Origin: Octopus vulgaris
Taxonomy: Eukaryota
Direction: 5' to 3'
Assembly: GCA_951406725.2 (NCBI GenBank)
Contig: OX597823.1
Span: 25,854,001 to 25,918,000 of the forward strand
Length of the DNA stretch: 64,000 nt
The notes below the pieces were generated by a model. The model had not been told where the DNA came from and did no database searches. It saw only the letters and a list, made by a program, of their open reading frames with translations. Positions 1,438 through 60,627 of the stretch are shown here, one piece after another. The position numbers were made by a program, and so were the translations under genes. Each line of letters begins with the position of its first letter. Position 1 is the stretch's first letter.

Positions 1438-2472
1438 TATCATCATCATTTAAGGTCCATTTTCCATGCTGGTACGGGTTGGATGATTAGACCAGGGCTG
1501 GCCAGCTGAAGAGCTACTCAGGCACCATATCTGTTTTGGCATAGTTTCTATGTGGCAGGTGCTTTTTATGTGGCACTGGCACCAATAAGCCTGCAAGATT
1601 AGGAACACTCAACTGAAGAGGGATGCAGGGGACATGTCTGTATGCATAGATGACCATGTATTTACTTAACTTGATGTGTCTTCTGAAGCACACCAGGAGT
1701 CTCAGTCCCCTGTCATCCCCTCCGTGAGGCCCAACATCTGAAGATCATTTCTCACCACTTCATCCCACAACTTCCTAGGTTTACCCCTTCCACATGTTCC
1801 CTCCACAATTAGAACTTGGAACTTCTTGATGAAACTGTCTTCATTCATATGCATTACATGACCATACCAGCGCAGCCTTCTCTCTTACACACTACATCTG
1901 ATGCCCCATATACCCAGATTTTCTCTCAAACCACTTACACTCTGTTGTATATGTACACTGACATTACTCATCCAGTGAAGCATACTGAAGCCTTTGCATG
2001 TCCTCAGTAGTCACAGCCCATGTTTCAATGCTATGTAGCATAGCTCTTTGTACACAGGCATCACAGAATCTGCGTTTCACTCTGAGGGAGAGGCCCTTCA
2101 TTACTAACAGAGGTAGTAGTTCTCTAAACTTTGCCCAGCTTATTCCCATTCTAGTGGCTATGCTTTTGGAACAACTGCCACCACTGCTAACTTGGTCACC
2201 TAAGTAACGGAAACTGTCAACTACTTCTAAGGATCTCCAATGACATTTGAGGGAGTCAATTTTTTGTACATTCTTTGTGTTTAATGTACCTGTACATCTT
2301 CCACATGTAAAAACTATTTTCTCTGTTAGTCTTCTAGCAATACCACTGCCCCTCTTATGTGTCCATAGCTTGCACTGAGTACACCATATGGAGTTTCTCC
2401 CAATGCCTTCTCTACATAGAGAGCAAGGCCATCTCCCAAATGGGATCTGTGACTTGTCCATTTTCCTAATTA
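1438..2472 (-). mobile_element. RTE-clade LINE, 5'-truncated copy (RT C-terminus with PHD finger and 3' tail)
   Basis: ORF 1964-2461 (GRWPCSLC...CTQCKLWTHKR...CGRC...LEVVDSFRYLG...AMLHSIETW); (ATC)n tail at ~1440. Confidence 0.9.
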
Positions 2473-3501
2473 GATATAAATATAACTATACCTGTGCTTT
2501 GCTTACAATTAGTCTTCATGATTGAAGAAACTATGGAAGTGATTGTATTTCTATGTTGCAGATGAACATATCTTGACTACCACAATGACAACAACCACCC
2601 AACATCCTTAGTCTACACTGCAGCAAGAGATAACTAAGCAAAGGAATTTTATAGTGGGAATGGGAATGTACAATTCTCTGAATCACTATCTTTACTATGA
2701 AGAAGATCCAGTGACAAGAGTCACCTAAAATAGTTGGTGTGTCCTCTCGACTTCAAGGGCCTGTCAGAAACCACCTTTTAGCTGTCTGCCACGGCTTGTT
2801 TTTCTTTCAGGGTATACTCTTCTCATCGTTGTTTTTTGGGGTTTTTCTGAACCCAGACATGAAATGGTAGGTCAATGCAGAGGTCCCTTCCACTATCTCC
2901 AAGGATCTCTATTTATCCCTTTCTTAGACACATGCTTTGACAAGAGCAGAAGGTCCAATCACTTGCAAGTGGCCTTATAATACTCATTCATGATCTGAAG
3001 TATTTATTTGTCTTGTATATTATTGGTAGATAGTCACTGACCCTAGCTGGGTTTCTCCATCCTTGCATTTGTCCTACTGAATTTGTCAGCTATTCTCATC
3101 ACCAGATTAACCTGGTAAGATGGGAGTACTGGTTTGGTCACCTGTGACCAATTGTATTGTAGTAGATTACAAAACACTGGTAATACTTGGAGTGACCTGA
3201 GGCGTACATTACATACACACAGTCAATAACTCACAAAGAATCCTTATAAAACTCATTCATCCTTTTATAAACATACAAACAATGGGTATTAAAGATACAA
3301 TCACTGTTCTATGAAGATACAGAGAATGCTTTTTTTTTTTAAATACTTACTCTCTCTCTCATACAGATACACATACCACATAAGATGAGAATCAAAACTA
3401 ATAGATGAAAACATTGCACTAAAATTCAAAAGCCTAGTGTACATTACAAGCATTTGACACGGTATTTGAAAATGAAAAATGACCAACAATAATAACATTA
3501 T

Positions 3502-8825: not shown

Positions 8826-11800
8826 ACATCATCATCATCATTGTTTAACATCTACTTTCCATGCTAGCATGGGTTAGATGATTTGACTGATGACTGGCAA
8901 CTCACATGGCTGCACCAGGCTCCAATCTGATCTGGCAGAGTTTCTACAGCTGGATGCCCTTCCCAATGCCAACAGCTCCAAGAGTGTAGTGGGTGCTTTT
9001 ACGTGCCACTGGCACAAGGGCCAGTCAGGTGGTACTGGCAATGGCCACATTCAAATGGTGCTTTTTACATGCCACCTGCACAGGAGCCAGTCCAGCTGCA
9101 CTGGCAACGACCTCACTCAAATGTTTTTTAATGTGCCAGCAGCATTTTTACATGCCACTGGCATAGAAGCCAGTCAGCTGCTCTGGCAACGATCATGCTC
9201 AGATGGTGCCCTTAGTGCTCCACTGGCACAGGTGCCACTCATCAAAGTTGATTCGATTTTGATTTCACTTGCCTCAACAGGTCTTTGTAAACAGAGTTTA
9301 GTGTCCAATGAAGGAAAGGTACACATAAGTGGGCTGGTTACACCCCTGGCATAGGCCACTTGGCTTGCCAGGTCCTCTCACACACTGCATATTTCCAAAG
9401 GTCTCGGTCACTAGTCATTGCCTCAGTGAGGCCTAATGTTTGAAGGTTGTGCTTCACTGCCTCATCCCAGGTCTTCCTGAGTCTACCTCTTCCACAGATT
9501 CCCTCAACCGCTAGGGTGTGGCACTTTTTCACACAGCTATCCTCATCCATTCTCGCCACATGACCATTCCAGTGCAGTCGTCTCTCTTGCACACCACATC
9601 TGATGCTTCTCGGGCCCAACTTTTCTCTCAAGGTACTTACACTCTGTCGAGTATGCACACTGACATTACACATCCATCGGAGCATACTGGCTTCATTTCT
9701 TGCGAGCTTACGCATGTCCTCAGCAGTCATGGCCCATGTTTGACTGCTATGTAGCATGGCTGTTCATACACATGCGTCATACAGTCTACCTTTTACTCTG
9801 AGCGAGAGGCCCTTTGTCACCAGCAGAGGTAAGAGCTCTCTGAACTTTGCCCAGGCTTTTCTTATTCTAGCAGCTATACTTTCAGTGCACCCTGCCCAGC
9901 TATTGACTTGGTCACCTAGGTAACAGAAGCTATCAACTACTTCTAGTTTTTCTCCCTGGAATGTGGCGGAAGTTGTTCTCTGCACATTTTCAGTGTTTAT
10001 TGCTCCTGAGCATCTGCCACATACAAAAACTATCTTCCCAGTTAGCCTTCCTTTGATATTGCTGCACCACTTATGTGTCCATAGCTTACACCAGGTACAT
10101 CTTATATAGTTTCTATCTATGCCTTTTCTACAGATGAAACAGGGCCATCTACCTGAAGGGATTTATAGTTTGTCTGCCTTCCTACTTATTAGGACTTTGG
10201 TTTTAGCTAGGTTGACTCTAAGGCCCTTCAATTCTAATCCTTGTTTCCACACTTGAAACTTCTCCTCTAGTTCTGATAGTGACTCAGCAATTATAGCAAG
10301 GTCATCAGCATAGAGGAGCTTCCAGGGGCATCCTGTCTTGAATTCCTCTGTTATTGCCTGGAGGACTATGATAAATAGAAGGGGGCTGAGGACTGAACCT
10401 TGGTGGACCCCTACCTCTACCCTGAATTCTTCAGTGTACTTCTTGCCAACTCTCACCTTACTTACAGTGTGCCTGTACATGGCTTGCACAGCTCTCACTA
10501 ACTATTCATCTATCCCTAGTTTCCTCATTGACCACCAGATAAGGGATCAGGGGACTCTGTCAAAGGCTTTTTTCATGTCAACAAAAGCCAGGTAAAGAGG
10601 TTTATCTTTGGCTAAGTATTTCTCCTGCAGCTGTCTTACTAGAAATATAGCATCAGTGGTGCTTTTCCCTGGCACAAACCCAAACTGCATCTCATCTAAA
10701 CTGACTCTCTCCCTAATTAGTTGGGCTATGACCCTCTCTGTGACCTTCATTACCTGATCCAACAACTTGATACCTCTGTAATTATTTGTATCTAAAGCAT
10801 CACCTTTACCTTTGTAGCAATTGACTATAGTGCTGCTACACCAATCATTCAGTATGACTCCTTTGTGTATCACCTGGTTAACTATACGAGTGACTAGGCT
10901 AATGCCAACACTGCCAGATATTTTGAGCATCTCTGCAGTGAATCCTGATGGGTTGGGGGCTTTCCCTGTCTTCATACTCTTAATTGCTTTATCTACCAAG
11001 GCACTGTCAATTTGGATAGCTGGTCCCTCTGTTGGGTTAACATTCGGCAGACTCTCTTTCTGCCATTCACTATATCCTCTTCTATTTCGTCAAAGCTTCG
11101 AGTAATATGTCTCTAAATCTTTGTCCATTTGTAGGATCTTTAAGCTTCTAGACCCTTCTCCTCCATGCTGGTCGTCTTCTGGGCATCCACTTAGCCCTGA
11201 TCCTACCAGTCACTAACTACCAGTCTATGTTGTGGGGTACATCCTTTGCCTGGGAAGGTTTTGGCATTTATAAGCAGCCATCTTTCCCTTTTTCTGACAA
11301 GGATGTAGTCAATTTGGCTAGTGTGTCTGTCAGAATGGTAGGTGACTAGGTGACTGGCAAGTTTCCTGATGTTAGCATTGCAAACCATAAGATTGTTTGC
11401 ATTGCAGAACTCCAGCAGCCTGGTTCCCTCCTCATTGTGGGAACCAAAACCATAGCCTCCATGTACACCATGGAAGCCCCCTGTATGTCGTCCATGTCCA
11501 TTGAAGTCACCAGCCACAAAGAGAAGGTCCGTGTCATTCGTCAACAAGGTAGTCTGCAAGAGGATGTCATAAAATTGGTTTTTCTGTCCATCGTGCAGCC
11601 CCAGCTGAGGAGCATAGTCTGAGATAATGGTTGCTAACCCATGATGAAGCACTAATCTAATCTTAAGTATTCTGTCGCATACTCTGACTACCTTGATTAC
11701 CTTATCAACCCATTTCCCCGCATGAAGTATACCCACGCCCCCGACCTCATCAGCATTCCCTGCCCAGAAAATCTGGTACCTGTGTTCTTTGCCGTGAGGA

Positions 11801-11990
11801 ACCTAGCGGAACCGCCTCTCCACCTTACTTCTTGGAGGCAGCACAAATCGACACATCTCCGTTCAAGCATCTCAACAGTCTCACTGGACCTACCTTTCAG
11901 TGTGCCAACGTTGAGAGTGCCAACCCTGAGGGTTTGGAAGGTGTAGGCCCTTGAGACCCTGGGACGGGGGACAGCAGCTTAATGTACTTG
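8826..11990 (-). mobile_element. RTE-clade LINE, near full-length but disrupted (APE endonuclease, RT, PHD finger, 3' UTR)
   Basis: APE: LRVGTLNVGTLKG...CCLQEVRW, AGDFNGH, SQIDYILV, QHRLVV (11203-11950). RT: GKAP, NYRGIKLL, QFGF, AFVDMKKAFDRVP, GVHQGSVLSPLLF, LLYADD (10163-10999). C-terminal RLHWNGHVARM. (ATC)n tail at 8826. Frameshifts, stops and an internal deletion near 11070-11100. Confidence 0.95.
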
Positions 11991-36002: not shown

Positions 36003-37148
36003 ATTTATATTCTCTACACAAGTTATAGCTGTTTTTTTCATATCAAATTGTTTTGTCTTTGTTATATTCTTGTATGTGGGGTGTCTCAGAATCCAAGATC
36101 AGCAGGTAGAATGTCACACAGTCACACATGGAGATATAAAGCAGGTAAGCCTTTTTAATTTCTTATGTGCACATATTCTGGTCATTGTACTATTCAGAAT
36201 GCAATGGTTATTCACAACACATTTTTCTAATGAGCTTCTCATCAAATAATCATTTAAATAGGCATAGTCATTATATAGCAGTCTTTCAGCTGTTGATGCA
36301 TAAAATAATGACTTTATTTAGATTAAAACAAATGATATATAATAATCAGTCAAGTGTAATCTAGGAGTAGGATGTGCAAGATAATTTGCAATGATTACCA
36401 GCAGTATTAATGTGCAATCCAACACAGTGATTACTGAATGTCTACTTGACTATGTGAATCAAATATTTGGCTCCTGTTCATTTTGAGGCAGTTTTCAAAC
36501 ACAAGAATATGTGATGAGAAATCCTTGTCAAATTAGGTTAATATCTAATAATAGGTTGAACTAATTGATTTCACTAAATAAATAAAAAAGACTGTCTCTC
36601 AGAGACTGAACGAATTGGAAATTGTGATAAGCTCCAGCATGCTACACAGAATAGTTACATTTGAAGAGCCTATGTGGAGCCAGTATGTGGTCATTCCTTT
36701 TGTTAGACATAGCAAGGTAAATCTCCCTCAAATCACTCTTTAACATTTCAAACTAAGAACACATAGTTCCTGATACACATGAAAAGATGGTTACAGCTGA
36801 AATGTCTTCAGTGATAGGTTTGCTCAATGAGGCTGACCTATGGTCTAAGATGTGAACAACAGCAACGTAGGCTAAAGAACAACATAACATTGTAGTGGAA
36901 TATCTTGCTCAGACACAATTCCTGGTCAGTTTAAGATGGTTTACACTTCACACTTGGAGCGTCTTTTCCTTATTCTGATACAGAATAAGGCATAGTGGTT
37001 AAGAGCGTGGGCTACTAACCCCAAGAATCCAAGTTCGATTCCAGGCAGTGACCTGAATAATAATAATAACAATAATAATAATAATAATAATAACAACAAC
37101 ATCGAAAAATACCTTAGGAATGAGAACCCAGGTTCAAAATTTTCCCAA

Positions 37149-37194
37149 GACACCTGATGAAGGCTGGAGGGTATATCAGTCGAAACGTTGTGTT
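37149..37194 (+). ncRNA. Minimal type I hammerhead ribozyme motif
   Basis: Stem I GACAC/GTGTT; core CTGATGA (37154-37160); one extra A; stem II GGCTG/CAGTC; GAAA (37182-37185); palindromic stem III AACGTT; predicted GUU cleavage after 37189. Confidence 0.75.
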
Positions 37195-37262
37195 AACAAT
37201 AAACAAGATGAGGATAAATATCCATCAAATGTAAATAATGTAAATAATTCCTCGTCTCTTAA

Positions 37263-37482
37263 CCCTTTAGCATTTAAACCGGCCATATCCGGCCAAAAGT
37301 ATTCTGCCTGTTTTATGGTCAAACTGGCCAGATCTGGTCTCTCACACCAACCCTACAATATCGTTTTAAAAATTAACAGCAACCTCATCAAAATCTCATC
37401 GCTACAAGATAATGCCTGATTAGTTCAAAACAGTTGGGTTAAAAAGGATTAATTTTGGTAGAATAATGCGAACACTAAAGGG
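37263..37482. mobile_element. piggyBac-like MITE
   Basis: TIRs CCCTTTAG...CTAAAGGG; flanked by TTAA (37259-37262) and CTAA (37483-37486); the empty site tctcTTAAatatagaa is seen in the copy at 59951-59966. Confidence 0.8.
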
Positions 37483-37527
37483 CTAAATATAGAACAGAAT
37501 AAAACTTTTGTTTTCTAACTACCTGAA

Positions 37528-40253: not shown

Positions 40254-43200
40254 TGTTGTAGTGAAAATGCTACACCCTTTCCCACATGACAAAGTGGTAT
40301 GAACCAGCCACTATAAAGTTAGACAGTCAGTCATTGTAGGATGTCAGTAGTAGTAGAGTCATTGTATGACTTCTCCGTTGGAGTTAAGTGTCAGTTATGT
40401 GTTATAGTCAAGTTCAAGTTACTGTCAAGTAGATGTTTCGAAGTTGTTGTCTTGCGGTGCACAATGAGTGAGTCAAAGATAATAAGATGCAGAATACTGC
40501 CATAACATAATAGTGGCAACAAAAATATTACAGTGCCAACAATTACATACAAGTGGACAAGGATCCACATTATAACAGTGGTACCAAGGATATAAACAAT
40601 TCATGTGGACAAAATTGAAAATAAAAAAGTTTTTTCACAAGAAATTAAACAATGCACGCAGATGATGTTGAAAATTATTTCATGTGGAGAGATTAAAAAT
40701 TTGACAGAGGAGTAACAAACATTTTTGTTGTATATATTTTACAAAAAATTTGTAAAATTATGAAAAGCTTGTTAGAGGGTTTAGCTGAGTTGCAAATATA
40801 GCAACAACTCAAAGAACAACAACAAATGTTACAGCAACAAATGCTACAACTAATGAAGTTGGTAACAAAACTAGAAAATACATTTTTGCCTAATCCTGTA
40901 ACAAATTCAGTAAATGAATTTAAATATGACCTAGAAGAAGGAATCACTTTTGAGCTATATTACCAAAGATTTGAACAAATATTTGAAAAAGGCTGCCAAG
41001 ACTGGACAGACAAAATGAAAACGTGTCTAATTCTGAGGAAACTGGTGATAATAGAGCATGGAAAATATTGTAACTTTATATTGCCTAAAAAGGTTTCTGA
41101 CATAAATTTCACAGTCACAATTGACATTTTATGTAGGATGTTTAATGAAAAAAACATTGTCATTCAGCACACACTGGAAGTATTTGAACACTGAGAAAAG
41201 CAAAGACTTTACCACATACGCAGGCAGAGTGAACAGAGAGTGTGAGAGATTTAAACTGGATAAACTAACTCCAGAAGTCAGAATGAAAGTTCTCGAAAAG
41301 CTGGAAATGAACCAGGATATAACTCTCCAGAAACTGTCAGAAGAGTGTGATGTGATATTAAAAGCAAGGCACAACACAGAAGAAATCCAACACAGATTGT
41401 TTACAGCTGAAACCAGTGTGGAAGAGTTGGAAGATAGATAAAGTGCTTCACAAAAAACACAATATACATCAGGAGATAAAGCTATGTATGACATGTGATG
41501 GTAGGCACCTGAGAAAAGAGTATCCATTCACAAAAGTGAAGTGTTTTTGTTGTGGAAACTAAGATGACGAAAAATTTGACCAACAAGAAAAAATTAATAT
41601 TTTGTCATCAGAGAAAAAAGTTTGTTCAGTGAACAGAAAATTCATCAAGGTGAGAATCAAAACCACTAGTGTCTAAATGCAATTAGACATGGGTAGTGAC
41701 CTAACTATCATAAATGAAGAAACATGGATACGAATCAGTAAGCCGAAATTATTTAAATCAAATAAAGTAGCATATGGTGTTACAGGAAAGAAATTATATT
41801 TCAGCAGCAAATGTATCTACAATGTAACTTTTTGAAGTGAAACAAAAAGAACGATCACTTACGTATTAAGAAATTGCTAAACCTATTTGGCATAGAATGC
41901 ATAGAATTATTTAAAATGTGGGATATTCCCATTAGTGTTCTCTGTGAAAATGTAGTCAGCATGGTTAAAAGTTCGAACAAAGCTGAACAACTGAGACAAA
42001 AAATTTTTTAAATTGTTTCCAAATGTTTTTTGGAAGGATTAGGCTGTTGCACTAAAACAAAAGAGAGAATCACGGTAAAAGAAAAGGCAACATCTGTTTT
42101 TAAGCACAAATGGGGCGTGCCATTTGTGGTGTTAGATCAGGTCAATAAAGAGCTAGAAAGACGAGAAAGTCTAGCTATAATTGAAAAAATTGACCATTCA
42201 GAGTGGGCAGCTCCAATAGTTTATGTAAAAAAACATTATAAACTAAGCGTATGTGTGAACTTTTCAACTGTTTACTCAAACACAACTATCCATTACCAAG
42301 GCCAGAAAAAGTGTACTCAAAAACTAAATCATTATCATCGTTTAACGTCCGTTTTCCATGCTAGCATGGGTTGGACGGTTCGACTGTGGTCTTGGAAGCC
42401 AGGAGGCTGCACCAGGCCCAGTCTGATCTGGCAGTGTTTCTACAGCTGGATGCCCTTCCTAATGCCAACCACTCTGTGAGTGTAGTGGGTGCTTTTTATG
42501 TGTCACTGGTACGGTGCCAGGTGAGGCTGGCAAACGGCCACGATCAGTTAGTGCCTTTTATGTGCCAGCGGCACGGAGGCCGGTCAGGGCGGTGCTGGCA
42601 ATGGCCATGTTCAGATGGTTCTTTTACGTGCCACAAGCACTGGTATCACAACTACAATTTCCATTGACTTTTGAGCAATTTCGATTCCGATTTCACTTGC
42701 CTCAACAGGTCTTCACAAGCAGAGTTTTGTGTCCCAAGAAGTAAAGGTATGCATAAGTGGGCTGGCTACATCCCAGGTAGAGGCCACGGGTTATGGCCTC
42801 ACTTGTCCTGCCGGGTCTTCTCACGCACAGCATACTTCCAAAGGTCTCGGTCACTAGTCACCATCTCGGTGAGACCTAATGTTCGAAGGTTGTACTTCAC
42901 CACCTCGTCCCAGGTTTTCCTGGGTCTACCTCTTTCACAGGTTCCCTCAACCGCTATGGTGTGGCACTTTTTCACACAACTATCTTCATCCATTCTCGTC
43001 ACATGACCATACCAGCGCAATCGTCTCTCTTGCACACTACAACTGATGCTTCTTAGGTCCAACTTTTCTCTCAAGGTACTTACACTCTGTCGAGTATGAA
43101 CACTGACATTACACATCCATCGGAGCATACTGGCTTCATTTCTTGTGAGCTTACGCATATCCTTAGCAGTCACAGCCCATGTTTCACTGCCATGTAGCAT

Positions 43201-44000
43201 GGCTGTTTGTACACTTGCGTCATACAGTCTACCTTTTACTTTGAGCGAGAGGCCTTTTGTCACCAGCAGAGGTAAGAGCTCTCTGTACTTTGCCCAGGAA
43301 ATTCTTACTCTAGCAGTTACACTTTCAGCACACCCGCTACTGACTTGGTCACCTAGGTAACGGAAGCTATCAACTACTTCTAGTTTTTCTCCCTGGAATG
43401 TGACGGAAGTTGTTCTCTGGACATTTTCAGTGTTTATTGCTCCTGAGCATCTGCTACAAACAAAAACTATCTTCCTAGTTAGCCTTCCTTTGACATTGCT
43501 GCACCTCTTATGTGTGCATAGCTTACACTTGGAGTAAAAATTTTCTCAAAGTTAGACCTCACAGAGGCCTATTAACAAGTAGAGGAAGATTGCACACACC
43601 TTTTAACAATTAACACGCCATGAATTGTATAAATTCATGCAGCATCTTTTTGGAGAGAATGTGACCCCTGCTATATTCCAACACGTGATGGATGCAATAT
43701 TAAATGATTGCAACTTCACTTTTGTTTATCTCAATGATATTTTGATAAAGAGTAAGTCAGTGGAGCAAGACTTCAAACATATTAAAAAAGTATTCGAAAA
43801 AGTAAATAAATATGGGTTTAGACTAAAAGCGGAAAAGTGAATTTTTGATGGAAAAAATCAAATATTTGGGTCAAGTAATTGACAAAAGGGAATAATGACC
43901 AAACCCATCAAGGGTGACAGCAATATGGAATATGCCTCCCCTAATGGACATCAAATTGTTACAAGCGTTAGGCTTGGTAAACTACTATCAAGTTAGATAA
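40254..44000 (+). mobile_element. Ty3/Gypsy LTR retrotransposon remnant (5' LTR, gag, protease, RT)
   Basis: TGTTG...TAACA LTR at 40254-40507 followed by TGG PBS-like sites; gag-like ORFs 40826-41441 (FKYDLEEGITFELYYQRFE); QLDMGSDLTII protease ~41680; RT HSEWAAPIVYVKK, FSKLDLTEAY, TPAIFQHVMD, VYLNDILI; no 3' LTR seen. Confidence 0.85.
42328..43530 (-). mobile_element. RTE-clade LINE, 5'-truncated, inserted in the Gypsy RT
   Basis: ORF 42799-43263 (AMLHGSETW...RRLRWYGHVTRM...RGRPRKTW); flanking Gypsy RT reading joins across the insertion. Confidence 0.95.
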
Positions 44001-50801: not shown

Positions 50802-52640
50802 TTCATCATCATCATTTAATATCCCTTGTCCATGCTGGCATGAGTTGGATGGTTTGACTGGGGCTGGCAAGCTGGGAGGCTACTGCACCTAACTCAAGTC
50901 TGATTTGGCATGGTTTCTATGGCTGGATGCCCTTCCTAATGCCAACCACTCTGAGAGTGTAATGCTTTTATATACCACCAGCACATGTGCCATTTGCATG
51001 ACACTAGTATATACCATGACTGTGATTTTGCTTGTCTTGATGGATCTTCTCAAGCACAATATGATGCCAAAGATCTCAGTCATTGGTTCCGTGAGGCTCA
51101 ACACTCGAAAGGAGCTCAGCCACTTTGCTTCCATGAGGCCCAATCCTCAAAAGGTGCTTTTTACTTGTCAGTGGTATGGGTGCCAACTAGGTGACACCAG
51201 CATCATCCACGACTATGATTTCATTTGGCTTGATGGGTCTTCTCAAGCACAACATATCGCTAAAGGTCTCAGTCACCAGTCATTACCTCTGTCAGGCCCA
51301 AACTTTGAAGATTTTGCTTCCCCATCTCATCCCATGTCTTCTGGGTCTACCTCTACCACAGGTTCCCTCCACAGTTAGAGATCGGCACTTCTTTATACAG
51401 CTGTCTACATCCATATGCATTGCATGAGCATACCAGAACTGTTGTCTTTCTTGCACACTATATCTGATGCCTCTTATGCCCAACTTTTCTCTCAAGATGC
51501 TTACACTCTGTCAAACATGCATACTGATATTGTACATCCAGTGAAGCATACTAGCTTCATTTCTTTCAAGCATGTTCTCAGCTGTTACAGCCCATGTTTC
51601 ACTGCCATGTAACATAACTGTTCACACACAGGCATCATACAATCTGCCTTTCACTCTGAGGGAGAAGCCCTTTGTTACCAGCAGAGGTAGGAACTCTCTG
51701 AACTTTGCCCAGCCTAATCTTATTCTCACAGCTATGCTCTCGGAGCATCCACTTACACTACTAACTTGGTCACCAAGATAACAGAAGTTATTTACTAATT
51801 CTAGCTTACCCCGTTGGCAGTTGATGAAGTATATTTTCTGTATATTTTCAGTGTTTATTGTACATGTGCCTCTTCCACATACAAAAGCTATTTTCCCTGT
51901 TGACCTTCCTCTAATATTGCTGCACCTTTTATGTGTCCAAAGCTTACACCAGGTGCATCTTATGGAGTCTCTACCTATGCCTTTTCTACATATTGAGTAG
52001 GGCCATCTACCTGAAGGGATTTGTGATTTGTCTGCTTTCCTACTTTCTAAGACTTTGGTCTTCGTTACTCTGTTATTGCCTGGAGGACTCTGATGAATGA
52101 GAGGGGGCTGAGGACCATCCTTGGTGAACCCCTACTTGTACCCTGAATTCCTCGCTGTACTCCTTGTCAGCCCTCACCTTATTGGTAGTGTCCCTGTGCA
52201 AGCCTTGTAAAGCTCTCACCAACCACTCATCTATCCCTAGTTTCTGCATTGACCACCAGATAAGGGATTGGTGGACCCTGTCAAAGGCTTTCTCCAAGTC
52301 AACAAAAGTCAAGTACAGAGGTTTATCTTTGACCAGGTATTTTTCCTGCAGCTGCCTTACCAGAAATATAGCATCAGTGGTGCTTCTCTGTAGCACAACA
52401 CCAAACTGCATCTCATACAGACTAACTCTCTCCCTAATTAATTGGGCAATGACTCTTTCTGTAACTCTGATCACCTGATCCAACAATTTGTTACCTCTGT
52501 AATTGTTTCTATTTCAGGCACCACATTTACCTTTGTAGAAGTTGACTATGGTGCTGCTACACCAGTCATTGGATATGACTCCTTCATGAACAATATGATT
52601 TACAATATGGATGACTAGACCATAACCCACACTACCAGAT
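50802..52640 (-). mobile_element. RTE-clade LINE, 5'-truncated, with internal deletion of the YADD region
   Basis: ORF 52073-52486 (QFG, TTDAIF, FVDLEKAFDRV, GVHQG); junction near 52060 skips YADD; PHD, C-terminus and tail present. Confidence 0.9.
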
Positions 52641-55156: not shown

Positions 55157-56834
55157 GTACGTGAAATTTGTAAACGAATTTTTAGTTTTACCCAAAATAA
55201 TATACTAATCTTTTATTTCTTGTAAAATTATTTTTATCTTTTCAGTTTATTGAATTTTCATTTAATCTTCTATTTAATTTCTTCTGTAATTAAAACTTAC
55301 CACTATTTATATCAGTCTATGATAGTAGAAACAGAGAGCGGAAATTTTGAAGGTATTAACTTTTTCTGAACTATAGTTCGAAGTTCTTTATTATTTCTTA
55401 TAGTTTACTACCTCTAAATCTATCTTATATAGTAAAACACTGCCAAGATAAAGAGATGTTTACGACTTAAGTTTTGCGAACTGTTTATGAAAGCAGCAAC
55501 ATGAAATTTATCAAATTTAGCTTTCATTAACTTAATTTTCTGATACTTTTTATGAACAATTTCCGAATGTCTTTAAGTACTATATTTTGAGTAATAATTT
55601 CCAAAACCAAAAGACATAACGGTGCTGTTTAGAATTTTAAAATATGTTAGTACTTAATAGTGAAAAGCACAATTTCTGGTTCAAATGACCACCAAATTTC
55701 CTCCCAATTACATCCTACCATCTTGGTTAACTATTAATGCTAAATCCCCATGCTCTACTGCTACAAATAAATTCGCTCTTCTCTGCAGCCTGCCAGTGAC
55801 TCCACATGTATCTTTTGAGTACACAATAGAGAGTCACTACTTTCTTGTCTCTGCATATTAAGCATGGTCACTTCCTAGATAATAGGTTTCTGTATTACTC
55901 CTATTTTAACTCATGTCCATTGTCCAGTAATCTTTCGTCACACATCTGTGACCTCTTCAGCTACACTTTCTGTCTTCGTGTGTGCTCTGCTTAGTCCATT
56001 TTGAATTTCTGTATTGCTAAAAACTTCTCACTCTAGAGGAAGGCAGTAGTGGTTTCCCTATCAGGTGCAAAGGTACAAATATTAACTGCAACCCATCTGA
56101 GCTGATTCTCTCTTTAGCTGCATTGTAACTCTTTCTGCCAATTTCATAATTTCGTCTTTCAATTTGATGCTCCTCTAGGCACACTTTTCTAAGCTTTTAT
56201 TTTTTTGCATTTGTATCAGTTGATGACGATAGTGCTATGCAAGTCATTGACACCTTATGTTACTTGATTAACTGTGTAAAGTAACTATTATGTGTCCTAC
56301 TTCACTAGATATTTTCAGCACCTTGACCACTATCCCTTATGGACCTGCAGCTTTACTTGCCATCATATGCATTACAGCTCTTTCAATCTTCTAACTGCCA
56401 ACTTCAATAGTTAATAGCTCTACTTGTGTTAGTTTCTCTCTTTCTCTCACACACACTTTTCTTTATTCAACTGCATTTCTATACTTGTTTCTTCTTGGTG
56501 TCTGTAAGTGTGTGTGCATCACTGTCATTCCACATACACTTTTCCCTGGGCTCCATCCAGTAGAATAAAGACATTATGCTATGTATTCTTTTTTTTTTTT
56601 TTTACTCTAAAGTGTAGTTTGAGAGATGTGACTGCTATTTCTAGCTGGTCAAATGAGGCTCAACTCAAAAAGTCTCTTTTTTCCAATTGAAGCAACAACA
56701 TGATGGTAACAATCTTATTTACACTCTACTAATGTATTGTGTGTCTTTGATGTTGATCTTACTAATCCTCTTGACACTATAATTTCCAAGATGAACTTCT
56801 TTTTCAGCCAAGACATATTGTCCAAATTTCAAAA

Positions 56835-57275
56835 ATGGCTGATGCAAGAAAAGGTGCCAGGTCTACAGAGGCAAAGGGAAAAGAGAAACAGAAAAAACTA
56901 CGTGAACTAGTTGATCAAGAAGAATATATTCTGAGGAAACGGCTCCCACGGACATTTCCAAAGAGACCTAATGATGTATATATTAGCAAAAAGACTAATT
57001 TCAAAGCACAAATGATTCGTTGTCAAACATTTCTAGACAATGGCAACAAAGTCTATATCCATGCTTTAGGAGCTGCTATTAACAGAGCAGTTAATTTAGC
57101 ATTGCAACTGAAGGCTAATGGTTGTGGTTCTGTGGAAATATCCACTAACACATCAACAGTTTACCTCACTGATGACTTGGAACCAGCAAACGATAAACTA
57201 GAATATGAGACATTAACAAGAACCAATTCAGCAATTCACATAAAAGTGTATCGACCTCAAAAATTAAAAGATTGA
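56835..57275 (+). CDS. POP7: Ribonuclease P/MRP protein subunit p20 (Rpp20, Alba family)
   Basis: 146-aa intact ORF with EYILRKRLP..PKRPNDVYISKKTNFKAQMIRC..LD...IHALGAAINRAVNLALQL...NTSTVYLTDDLEP...RTNSAIHIKV, matching metazoan POP7; AAAATGG start context. Confidence 0.95.
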   Translation: MADARKGARSTEAKGKEKQKKLRELVDQEEYILRKRLPRTFPKRPNDVYISKKTNFKAQMIRCQTFLDNGNKVYIHALGAAINRAVNLALQLKANGCGSVEISTNTSTVYLTDDLEPANDKLEYETLTRTNSAIHIKVYRPQKLKD

Positions 57276-59663: not shown

Positions 59664-59699
59664 ACACACACACATGATGGACTAAACAACAGTAGTTCT

Positions 59700-59969
59700 T
59701 TATTTACTTTTGACAGATATTTGTCATCTTGTTTGTTGTTAACACAACGTTTCAGCTGATATATGCTCCAGCCATCATCAGGTGTCTTGGAGAAATTTCA
59801 AACCTGGATTCTCATTTTTCGATGTTATTATTCGAAATTTCCCCTAAGACACTTGATGAAGGCTGGAGGGTATATCAGCCGAAACATGTTAACAACAAAC
59901 AAGATGAGGACAAATATCTGTCAAATGTAAATAATGTACATAATTCCTCATCTCTTAAATATAGAACTG
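59700..59969. mobile_element. Second family D insertion: inverted duplication of the hammerhead segment with 12-bp TSD
   Basis: 59700-59830 is a reverse-complement copy of 37090-37238; 59831-59969 is a forward copy; aacagtagttct at 59688-59699 and 59970-59981. Confidence 0.85.
59741..59786 (-). ncRNA. Minimal type I hammerhead ribozyme motif
   Basis: Minus strand GACAC CTGATGA T GGCTG gagcatatat CAGCT GAAA CGTT GTGTT; core intact. Confidence 0.7.
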
Positions 59970-60627
59970 AACAGTAGTTCTGTTCCAAACAGTTTTCATG
60001 CACCATGCCAGAATGGATTTCATGTAACTATTTGATGAGAGTGGAAAAAAGACTAAGATAAGTTTAATTTCTCCTACTTTTTTTTTAATAAATATTTTAT
60101 TTAAATTCAAAATCTTTTATTTAGGTATTAATATATCAGTCTCGTATATTTTCTTCCATAAAGACTTTACTCTAGTTGTCTCTTCTTTATCTGAATGAAG
60201 AGGCAGAAAGGAGACCAGTCCGTTATATAATATACTGTCATCAGATTGGCTTTCTAGATGTTTAACCTACAAAACGAGATAAACAAACAAAAATTAAAAT
60301 ATAATTGTTGAATTATTTCAAATATGATAAAGAGAAAACTTACAATAAAATTTGTCAAAAGCTTCAAAATGTGGATAGTAGAATTAGGCCAACCAAAATG
60401 TTTTGCAATACAGTAATACCTCACTTTACAAGATCCTGGGTTTACGAGTTTTATTTTACAGCTCATTTTTGAACAAAGTGCAAAAGTTTCTACTACAATA
60501 ACAAATGCTTCTTCATGTTAGCGAGAAATTTATAGAGCAAAAGAAAAAAAGTTTCTTCTAAGCAAACAACTCTAGATTTGTTTTTTTATGTTAAAAAGAA
60601 ATCTACAAGTCTGTCTATGAGTGTTCG

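What the first reader, a model, noticed from the sequence alone, without database searches (positions are those of the whole stretch)
59700..59969. Inverted-duplicated hammerhead insertion with TSD and ~35-nt 3' extension, a Penelope integration signature
Seen in sequence: a minus-strand copy (59700-59830, reaching back into the taataacatcgaaaaat linker of family D) is fused to a plus-strand copy (59831-59969). The arms overlap by roughly 100 nt, so this is an inverted duplication rather than a simple inversion. The plus arm extends about 35 nt beyond the minus arm, and a perfect 12-bp TSD (aacagtagttct) flanks the unit. The minus hammerhead is intact; the plus one has C3>T and a stem III deletion. 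Established knowledge: PLE insertions often have an inverted truncated pLTR and a short 3' tail on one repeat. Inference: family D is mobilised by PLE RT/GIY-YIG machinery.
Basis: partly seen in the sequence, partly recalled or inferred. Interest (0 to 1): 0.7.

Follow-up and report, generated by a model that had tools for sequence, protein, structure and literature searches.

The report
Two-armed Penelope insertion, tRNA-headed repeat
This is an old, broken insertion of two back-to-back copies of the end repeat of a protein-coding Penelope-type jumping gene, the known footprint of that class; the unusual part is that the repeat opens with a tRNA-like block that likely served as an RNA polymerase III promoter, and the many copies suggest each arm was likely copied separately from sense RNA.

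Summary
Observation confirmed. Head-to-head arms (59700-59832 minus, 59831-59969 plus) carry a 35-nt tail and a 12-bp duplication; a paralogous site elsewhere in the genome holds that 12-mer once (11/12), so it is a true TSD. The pattern is the family rule: 63 of 90 copies picked by tail alone are inverted, long arm ending at consensus 275, short arm mostly at 240-251, TSD mode 12. 'Family D' is not a passenger but the pseudo-LTR of an autonomous ~2.6-kb PLE (RT plus C-terminal GIY-YIG-like domain); its ORF begins inside the repeat. That anatomy is published. Added here: the repeat opens with a tRNA-like A/B-box head where 44 of 61 arms stop (1.7 expected), and the unit lacks sense TTTT (P about 0.01-0.03; 3 of 33 relatives also have none), suggesting Pol III transcription. 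Paired arms share a lineage marker (63 of 66) but often differ in deletions at the hammerhead cut site (18 of 25), favouring two separate priming events over one fold-back. Both hammerheads here are likely dead. The scan reached the tRNA-promoter reading before on other copies; I found no paper stating it.

The parts
59679..59687 (+). left flank shared with the paralogous empty site (9 nt)
59688..59699 (+). left target-site duplication, 12 bp
   Evidence: single copy (11/12) at the paralog
59700..59832 (-). short arm: pLTR positions 94-240, with an 11-nt and a 3-nt deletion and 9 substitutions against consensus
59741..59786 (-). minimal type I hammerhead; core and helix I intact, G10.1-C11.1 decayed to G-U; predicted cut between 59746 and 59745
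   Evidence: descriptor from PMC4209133
59831..59832 (.). head-to-head junction, 2-nt microhomology
59831..59969 (+). long arm: pLTR positions 135-275
59848..59890 (+). broken hammerhead: C3>T and 3-nt deletion at the cut-site triplet
59935..59969 (+). 35-nt tail present on the long arm only; codes for part of the parent ORF N-terminus
59970..59981 (+). right target-site duplication, 12 bp
36985..37262 (+). second family copy in the window, with the tRNA-like head (pLTR 5-264), single arm, tail interrupted by another insertion

Best explanation
The locus is a decayed insertion of two 5'-truncated, head-to-head copies of the pseudo-LTR of an autonomous Penelope-type retrotransposon, likely made when its RT/endonuclease cut both target strands 12 bp apart and primed one cDNA from each end. 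Shown: the anatomy, the true TSD, the parent element, two preferred 3' ends about 32 nt apart, and a sharp 5' stop at a tRNA-like head. Inferred: (1) the two 3' ends are the two internal RT start sites shown in vitro for the anole PLE; (2) both cDNAs copy sense RNA of one source lineage (one RNA twice or two RNAs) and are joined by microhomology; (3) the RNA 5' end lies at the head because its A/B boxes act as a Pol III promoter, so RT starting at the 5' pLTR/ORF junction has only about 275 nt to copy and yields thousands of SINE-sized copies; (4) deletions and 5' ends clustered at the hammerhead cut site may record RT crossing a self-cleaved RNA. The short copies lack the downstream sequence and are likely dead on arrival.
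For: Inverted structure in 63 of 90 tail-picked loci and 4 of 4 complete loci in 600 kb of random sequence. Long end 273-275 in 47 of 51 pair rows, short end 240-251 in 45 of 51. TSD found in 32 of 53 unbiased pairs, mode 12. Parent: upstream RT/EN ORF and read-through past 275 into a PLE N-terminus in tandem copies. 44 of 61 arms reaching the head stop at positions 1-8 against 1.7 expected; in 15 of 53 pairs one arm ends at 1-4 while the other is cut at 40 or later. The head has A and B boxes (recalled consensus; 3 hits in 600 kb) and best matches a genomic tRNA-Arg(TCG), z 8.4, among 20 tRNAs. Position-160 marker concordant in 63 of 66 pairs, P 2e-10; the 3-nt deletion is discordant in 18 of 25 pairs carrying it. 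Deletions start at 186-192 in 18 of 114 arms against 0-7 in other windows; 5' ends at 192-199 are 8 against 2.9 expected, P 0.01. PAc cleaves and extends both strands from two start sites bounding the tail (PMC11167929).
Against: No RNA data: only assembled contigs were available. No intact parent copy seen; best copies are 95-96% identical to the majority, mean mismatch 0.056. The TTTT test is weak: P 0.027 by synonymous shuffle, and 3 of 33 related PLE ORFs of 1.5 kb or more also have none. The 3-nt deletion is partly concordant within pairs (7 of 25, P 0.014), keeps the reading frame and sits in short GT/GTT repeats, so inheritance or slippage can explain it. Shared markers also fit a single-template model. 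ARAGORN and Rfam do not call the head a tRNA. Pfam GIY-YIG did not hit two parent ORF fragments. PMC11167929 found no reads ending at the HHR site and HHR dispensable in vitro. 21 of 53 unbiased pairs gave no TSD.
Confidence: 0.65

Rival explanations
1. The inversion comes from self-priming or fold-back on one (antisense) template, as proposed for rotifer PLEs, with later deletions in the palindrome centre.
For: A native palindrome lies at the head start and recurs at junctions; 10 of 53 pairs have both arms ending at 1-8. Arms share lineage markers. Proposed in PMC3846280.
Against: 15 of 53 pairs have one arm ending at 1-4 and the other cut at 40 or later; only 14 of 53 junctions are symmetric within 10 nt. 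Arms often differ in cut-site deletions. PAc extends both DNA strands from sense RNA.
Confidence: 0.2
2. The head is a captured SINE or tRNA relic without a Pol III role; the PLE is read by Pol II, and 5' ends pile up there because Pol II starts there or RT stalls or anneals at the palindrome.
For: D. virilis Penelope has a LINE-like internal promoter (PMC2377424). Head stems are decayed and not called as tRNA. A translated mRNA from Pol III is hard to explain. TTTT-free ORFs occur in 3 of 33 relatives.
Against: Both boxes match consensus at tRNA spacing and the stop falls at the tRNA-equivalent first base. The 2,628-nt unit has 0 sense TTTT against 30 AAAA; two other PLE ORFs of this genome have 9 and 8.
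Confidence: 0.3
3. Family D is an independent non-autonomous SINE or retrozyme with its own short masters that borrows PLE enzymes in trans (first reader; note e1-9981537).
For: Most copies are short: only 3 of 30 head-picked loci continue upstream into the PLE. Sm-alpha is a precedent for Pol III plus hammerhead.
Against: The sequence is colinear with the parent's terminal repeat on both sides. PAc needs RNA beyond the RT start site, which short copies lack. Tandem short arrays are rare: 1 of 90.
Confidence: 0.12
4. Two unrelated insertions or a chance direct repeat.
For: The two arms here are only 85% identical.
Against: One TSD brackets both arms, the paralog has a single 12-mer, and the structure recurs family-wide.
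Confidence: 0.02

Closest known systems
Pen2a/Pen2 Penelope elements of Adineta vaga (PMC3846280; passages and Discussion read)
   Same: Inverted head-to-head pLTR, 31-bp one-sided tail, pLTR containing the ORF start, palindrome at the pLTR 5' end, TSD verified by an empty site.
   Different: TSD 8-10 bp there, about 12 here; TATA/Inr promoter proposed there, tRNA-like A/B-box head here; few copies there, thousands of pLTR-only pairs here.
Poseidon PAc of Anolis carolinensis (PMC11167929; parts 1-2 of 4 read)
   Same: ORF starts in the pLTR near the hammerhead; two RT start sites bound the tail; both strands extended. An 836-aa Anolis protein is 38% identical to the parent fragment (its identity with PAc is inferred).
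   Different: No tRNA-like head or TSD length in the parts read; joining of two arms was not shown.
Minimal hammerheads of metazoan PLEs (PMC4209133; parts 1-2 of 4 read)
   Same: No loop 3, unpaired base before helix II, 5-bp helix I; the paper notes dual motifs 100-700 bp apart on opposite strands.
   Different: Helix II is 5 bp here; both copies at this locus are damaged or sequestered.
Sm-alpha/Sj-alpha SINE-like elements of Schistosoma (second-hand passages in PMC6765202, PMC2770079)
   Same: Pol III-type promoter followed by a type I hammerhead, high copy number.
   Different: Non-coding and tandem; here the unit is part of a protein-coding element and lands as inverted pairs.
TRIMp3 elements Helenus, Ajax, Cassandra (PMC10886601; passages read)
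   Same: Small-RNA-derived Pol III promoter inside a terminal repeat.
   Different: Non-autonomous LTR elements with 4-5-bp TSDs; here an autonomous PLE.

Membership tests
EN+ Penelope-like element | single ORF with RT | tested here: met
   PF00078 at 29.5 bits, just under the 29.6 cut-off; GLAMG and YVDD motifs over 810 stop-free aligned codons; 270 homologs at E<=1e-20
EN+ Penelope-like element | C-terminal GIY-YIG endonuclease | tested here: inconclusive
   Conserved Y/C/Y/T/R/E/H columns downstream of RT and 5 of 120 listed homologs carry PF01541, but PF01541 did not hit two parent fragments
EN+ Penelope-like element | pLTR formed by partial tandem and containing the ORF start | tested here: met
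   (ATG at 122; frame open past 275 in individual copies)
EN+ Penelope-like element | inverted 5'-truncated copy with 30-40-bp one-sided tail | tested here: met
EN+ Penelope-like element | TSD created on insertion | tested here: met
EN+ Penelope-like element | type I (minimal) hammerhead in the pLTR | tested here: met
   motif and consensus fold; cleavage not tested
Penelope/Poseidon clade | RT phylogeny; no Neptune/Nematis linker motif | not tested
   no tree with named references; assignment rests on domain order and the Anolis homolog
tRNA-derived SINE | A and B boxes in a tRNA-derived head at the 5' end | tested here: met
   box consensus recalled; only 7 tRNA isotypes compared
tRNA-derived SINE | independent non-coding element with its own source copies | tested here: not met
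   colinear with the coding parent on both sides
tRNA-derived SINE | Pol III transcription | not testable with these tools
   only contigs available
Non-LTR retrozyme | head-to-tail tandem units, each with a hammerhead | tested here: not met
   1 of 90 tandem, 63 of 90 inverted; definition from bioRxiv 2026.07.22.740005

The most novel reading that the evidence does not exclude
An autonomous, protein-coding retrotransposon read end to end by RNA polymerase III: it captured a tRNA-Arg-like promoter in its pseudo-LTR, purged TTTT terminators from its 2.6-kb unit, and its tens of thousands of two-armed inserts record double-ended priming and hammerhead self-cleavage in vivo.
Probability: 0.28. 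Interest if true: 0.8.

Novelty: new variant of a known kind. Interest (0 to 1): 0.5.

Why it matters
How PLEs form head-to-head inverted ends with a one-sided tail is called unresolved in the papers read (PMC8557442, PMC3846280). This family offers thousands of short, TSD-bounded products whose two arms can be compared, so two-ended priming versus antisense self-priming becomes a counting exercise. A Pol III-type promoter in the terminal repeat of an autonomous element would blur the SINE/autonomous boundary and raise the question of how such an RNA is translated. Practically, these copies look like a tRNA SINE and would be misfiled. The single locus alone is ordinary.

Tried and rejected
Telomerase-like repeat addition at the short arm: rejected, because long arms carry 2 or 3 copies of the 9-mer too (22 and 27 of 62). 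The young 781-aa PLE family and others found through PF01541 as partner: rejected, no shared 3' sequence. The empty form as a polymorphic allele: rejected, it maps to a paralog on another contig of the own genome. The 3-nt deletion as a subfamily marker: it occurs on three marker backgrounds, only partly heritable. Rfam for hammerhead or tRNA head: no match. ARAGORN on 10 family loci and 35 of 80 metagenome loci: none. Phage search with the head: nothing useful. A/B-box heads in 80 related metagenome PLE loci: 2 loci with regex hits, none tied to a hammerhead; many contigs are too short to show the pLTR. First read-laying was swamped by repeats. The filled junction was seen in 3 of 4 runs, two species labels; its lack in the fourth is no evidence. 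My majority sequence of the parent changes frame twice against a homolog, so codon tests were done on aligned segments; ORF statistics (wrong or partial frame) were set aside. Sequence and nearby look-ups of earlier notes gave nothing.

Full report
Observation. The 12-mer AACAGTAGTTCT is exact at 59688-59699 and 59970-59981. Against a 275-nt family consensus from 65 long copies, the minus arm covers positions 94-240 and the plus arm 135-275, with a 2-nt overlap at the junction. The arms are 85% identical over 107 columns and the tail is 35 nt. The hammerhead is the minimal type I form of PMC4209133 (parts 1-2 of 4 read): no loop 3, an unpaired base before helix II. The plus copy has C3>T and has lost the cut-site triplet. 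The minus copy keeps core and helix I but its G10.1-C11.1 pair is G-U. The two lie on opposite strands and the unit is predicted to fold as one long hairpin, so neither is likely active.

The TSD is real. Contigs in 4 of 4 laid runs show the right flank preceded by the 9 left-flank bases with no element. The own genome (2.8 Gb; probably an octopus, from recalled repeats and earlier notes) has this form on another contig, with one 12-mer (11/12 identical) and about 300 nt of shared right flank. It is a paralog rather than an allele; left homology is only 9 nt. The filled junction is seen in 3 of 4 runs under two species labels.

The structure is the family rule. An exact 24-nt tail pattern has 4,478 matches. 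Five clear loci and two weak fragments in 600 kb of random sequence suggest roughly 20-30 thousand loci, with wide error; 4 of 4 complete ones are inverted. Of the first 90 tail matches on contig 1, 53 have an inverted tailless arm, 5 an inverted head only, 31 looked single and 1 tandem; 5 singles have long inverted arms of upstream sequence, giving 63 of 90. Among similarity-picked and random loci, long arms end at 273-275 in 47 of 51 rows and short arms at 240-251 in 45 of 51; TSDs of 10 bp or more occur in 24 of 51 against 2 of 2000 controls (one locus counted twice). In the unbiased pairs a TSD was found in 32 of 53, mode 12, and short arms end mostly 31-33 nt before the long end once 2- and 3-unit 9-mer variants are aligned.

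The parent. Several single copies share hundreds of bases upstream of the head. [quoted passage not shown] In tandem copies the repeat continues past 275 in frame into the N-terminus; the ATG is at 122 and the unit is about 2,628 nt. Copies differ from the majority at 0.056 per site and the best are 95-96% identical, so the family is old. Other PLE families of the genome, including a young 781-aa one, share no end sequence with it. Family D is thus the pseudo-LTR of its own autonomous element.

The head. Positions 1-75 hold A and B boxes (recalled consensus; 3 regex hits in 600 kb). Among 20 genomic tRNAs of 7 isotypes the best match is tRNA-Arg(TCG), z 8.4; ARAGORN and Rfam do not call it. 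Of 61 arms reaching position 8, 44 stop at 1-8 against 1.7 expected (hits extending only into the palindrome were counted as stops), and in 15 of 53 pairs one arm ends at 1-4 while the other is cut at 40 or later. That fits an RNA 5' end. The unit has no sense TTTT and 30 AAAA runs: P 0.0065 by base shuffle, 0.027 by synonymous shuffle, 0.018 with other PLEs' codon usage. Two other PLE ORFs here have 9 and 8. But 3 of 33 related ORFs of 1.5 kb or more from metagenome contigs also have none (1 of 21 at similar T content), so this is suggestive only.

Mechanism. PMC11167929 (parts 1-2 of 4) shows a Poseidon protein cleaving and extending both target strands from two internal start sites that bound the tail, and needing RNA beyond the start site. 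Applied here (inferred): a 12-bp staggered cut, one cDNA from 275 and one from about 243, joined by microhomology. Because the start sites lie about 275 nt from the RNA 5' end, short products dominate. Arms of a pair come from one lineage: the position-160 marker agrees in 63 of 66 pairs. Yet the 3-nt deletion differs between arms in 18 of 25 pairs that carry it (selection favoured it in long arms of one subset; 7 of 25 agree, P 0.014), as at this locus. Deletions start at 186-192 in 18 of 114 arms against 0-7 in other 7-nt windows and 5' ends at 192-199 number 8 against 2.9 (P 0.01). This may record RT jumping across a self-cleaved RNA, but slippage in GT/GTT repeats or in-frame inheritance is not excluded. 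The rival of PMC3846280 (passages and Discussion), self-priming on an antisense template, explains shared markers and palindromic junctions (10 of 53 pairs) but less well the asymmetric ones.

Comparison with print. Inverted pLTR, 30-40-bp tail and TSD are described in PMC8557442 (passages) and PMC3846280. D. virilis Penelope has a LINE-like internal promoter (PMC2377424 passages). Pol III plus hammerhead is known from Sm-alpha (passages) and Pol III promoters in terminal repeats from non-autonomous TRIMs (PMC10886601 passages). Passages of PMC13282606, PMC8967140 and bioRxiv 596502 and parts 1-2 of 5 of bioRxiv 2026.07.22.740005 did not mention this family. Eight searches listed no paper on a tRNA-headed autonomous PLE; most subscription journals, Repbase, Dfam and all supplements were not seen and may hold it. 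Earlier notes of this scan, read after my reading was formed, reach the same tRNA-promoter conclusion on other copies; they are not independent support.

Verdict. The family is a new variant of a known kind through its tRNA-like head, and its copies make an open mechanistic question testable. Interest 0.5.

Noticed in passing
window 56775-57275 (+): Intact 166-codon frame matching Rpp20/Alba (RNase P/MRP subunit); the insertion lies about 2.4 kb downstream of it.
   Followed up: partly
window 37263-37485: An insertion with short terminal inverted repeats splits the tail of the second family copy at a TTAA-like site, possibly a piggyBac-type MITE (class recalled).
   Followed up: no
L202 815-1572 versus window 59679-60268: A low-copy duplication of about 300 nt between two chromosomes; each copy took a different later insertion.
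   Followed up: partly
L181-L185, L158-L177: A young, abundant PLE family with a 781-codon RT/GIY-YIG frame, a second upstream frame of up to 479 codons, a U3-A8 hammerhead variant, CCAAT/CRE-like repeats and (TA)n targets.
   Followed up: partly
L186 2821-3586 and 5218-5983: Another autonomous PLE with 100% identical inverted arms and a roughly 27-nt one-sided tail, a very young comparator.
   Followed up: partly
family consensus 276-280: Bases after the long end resemble the parent's continuation (T65, A80, T50, T44, A59 of 90): either the start site drifts or primers pair with the RNA.
   Followed up: no
window 1964-2485, 10547-11802, 42799-43545, 51622-52131 (-): Fragments of non-LTR (RTE-like, recalled) RT and endonuclease frames, used only as TTTT controls.
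   Followed up: no
L415, L428, L437: Related PLE ORFs from metagenome contigs with no sense TTTT over 1.7-2.3 kb and no A/B-box hit; worth checking for another promoter type.
   Followed up: no
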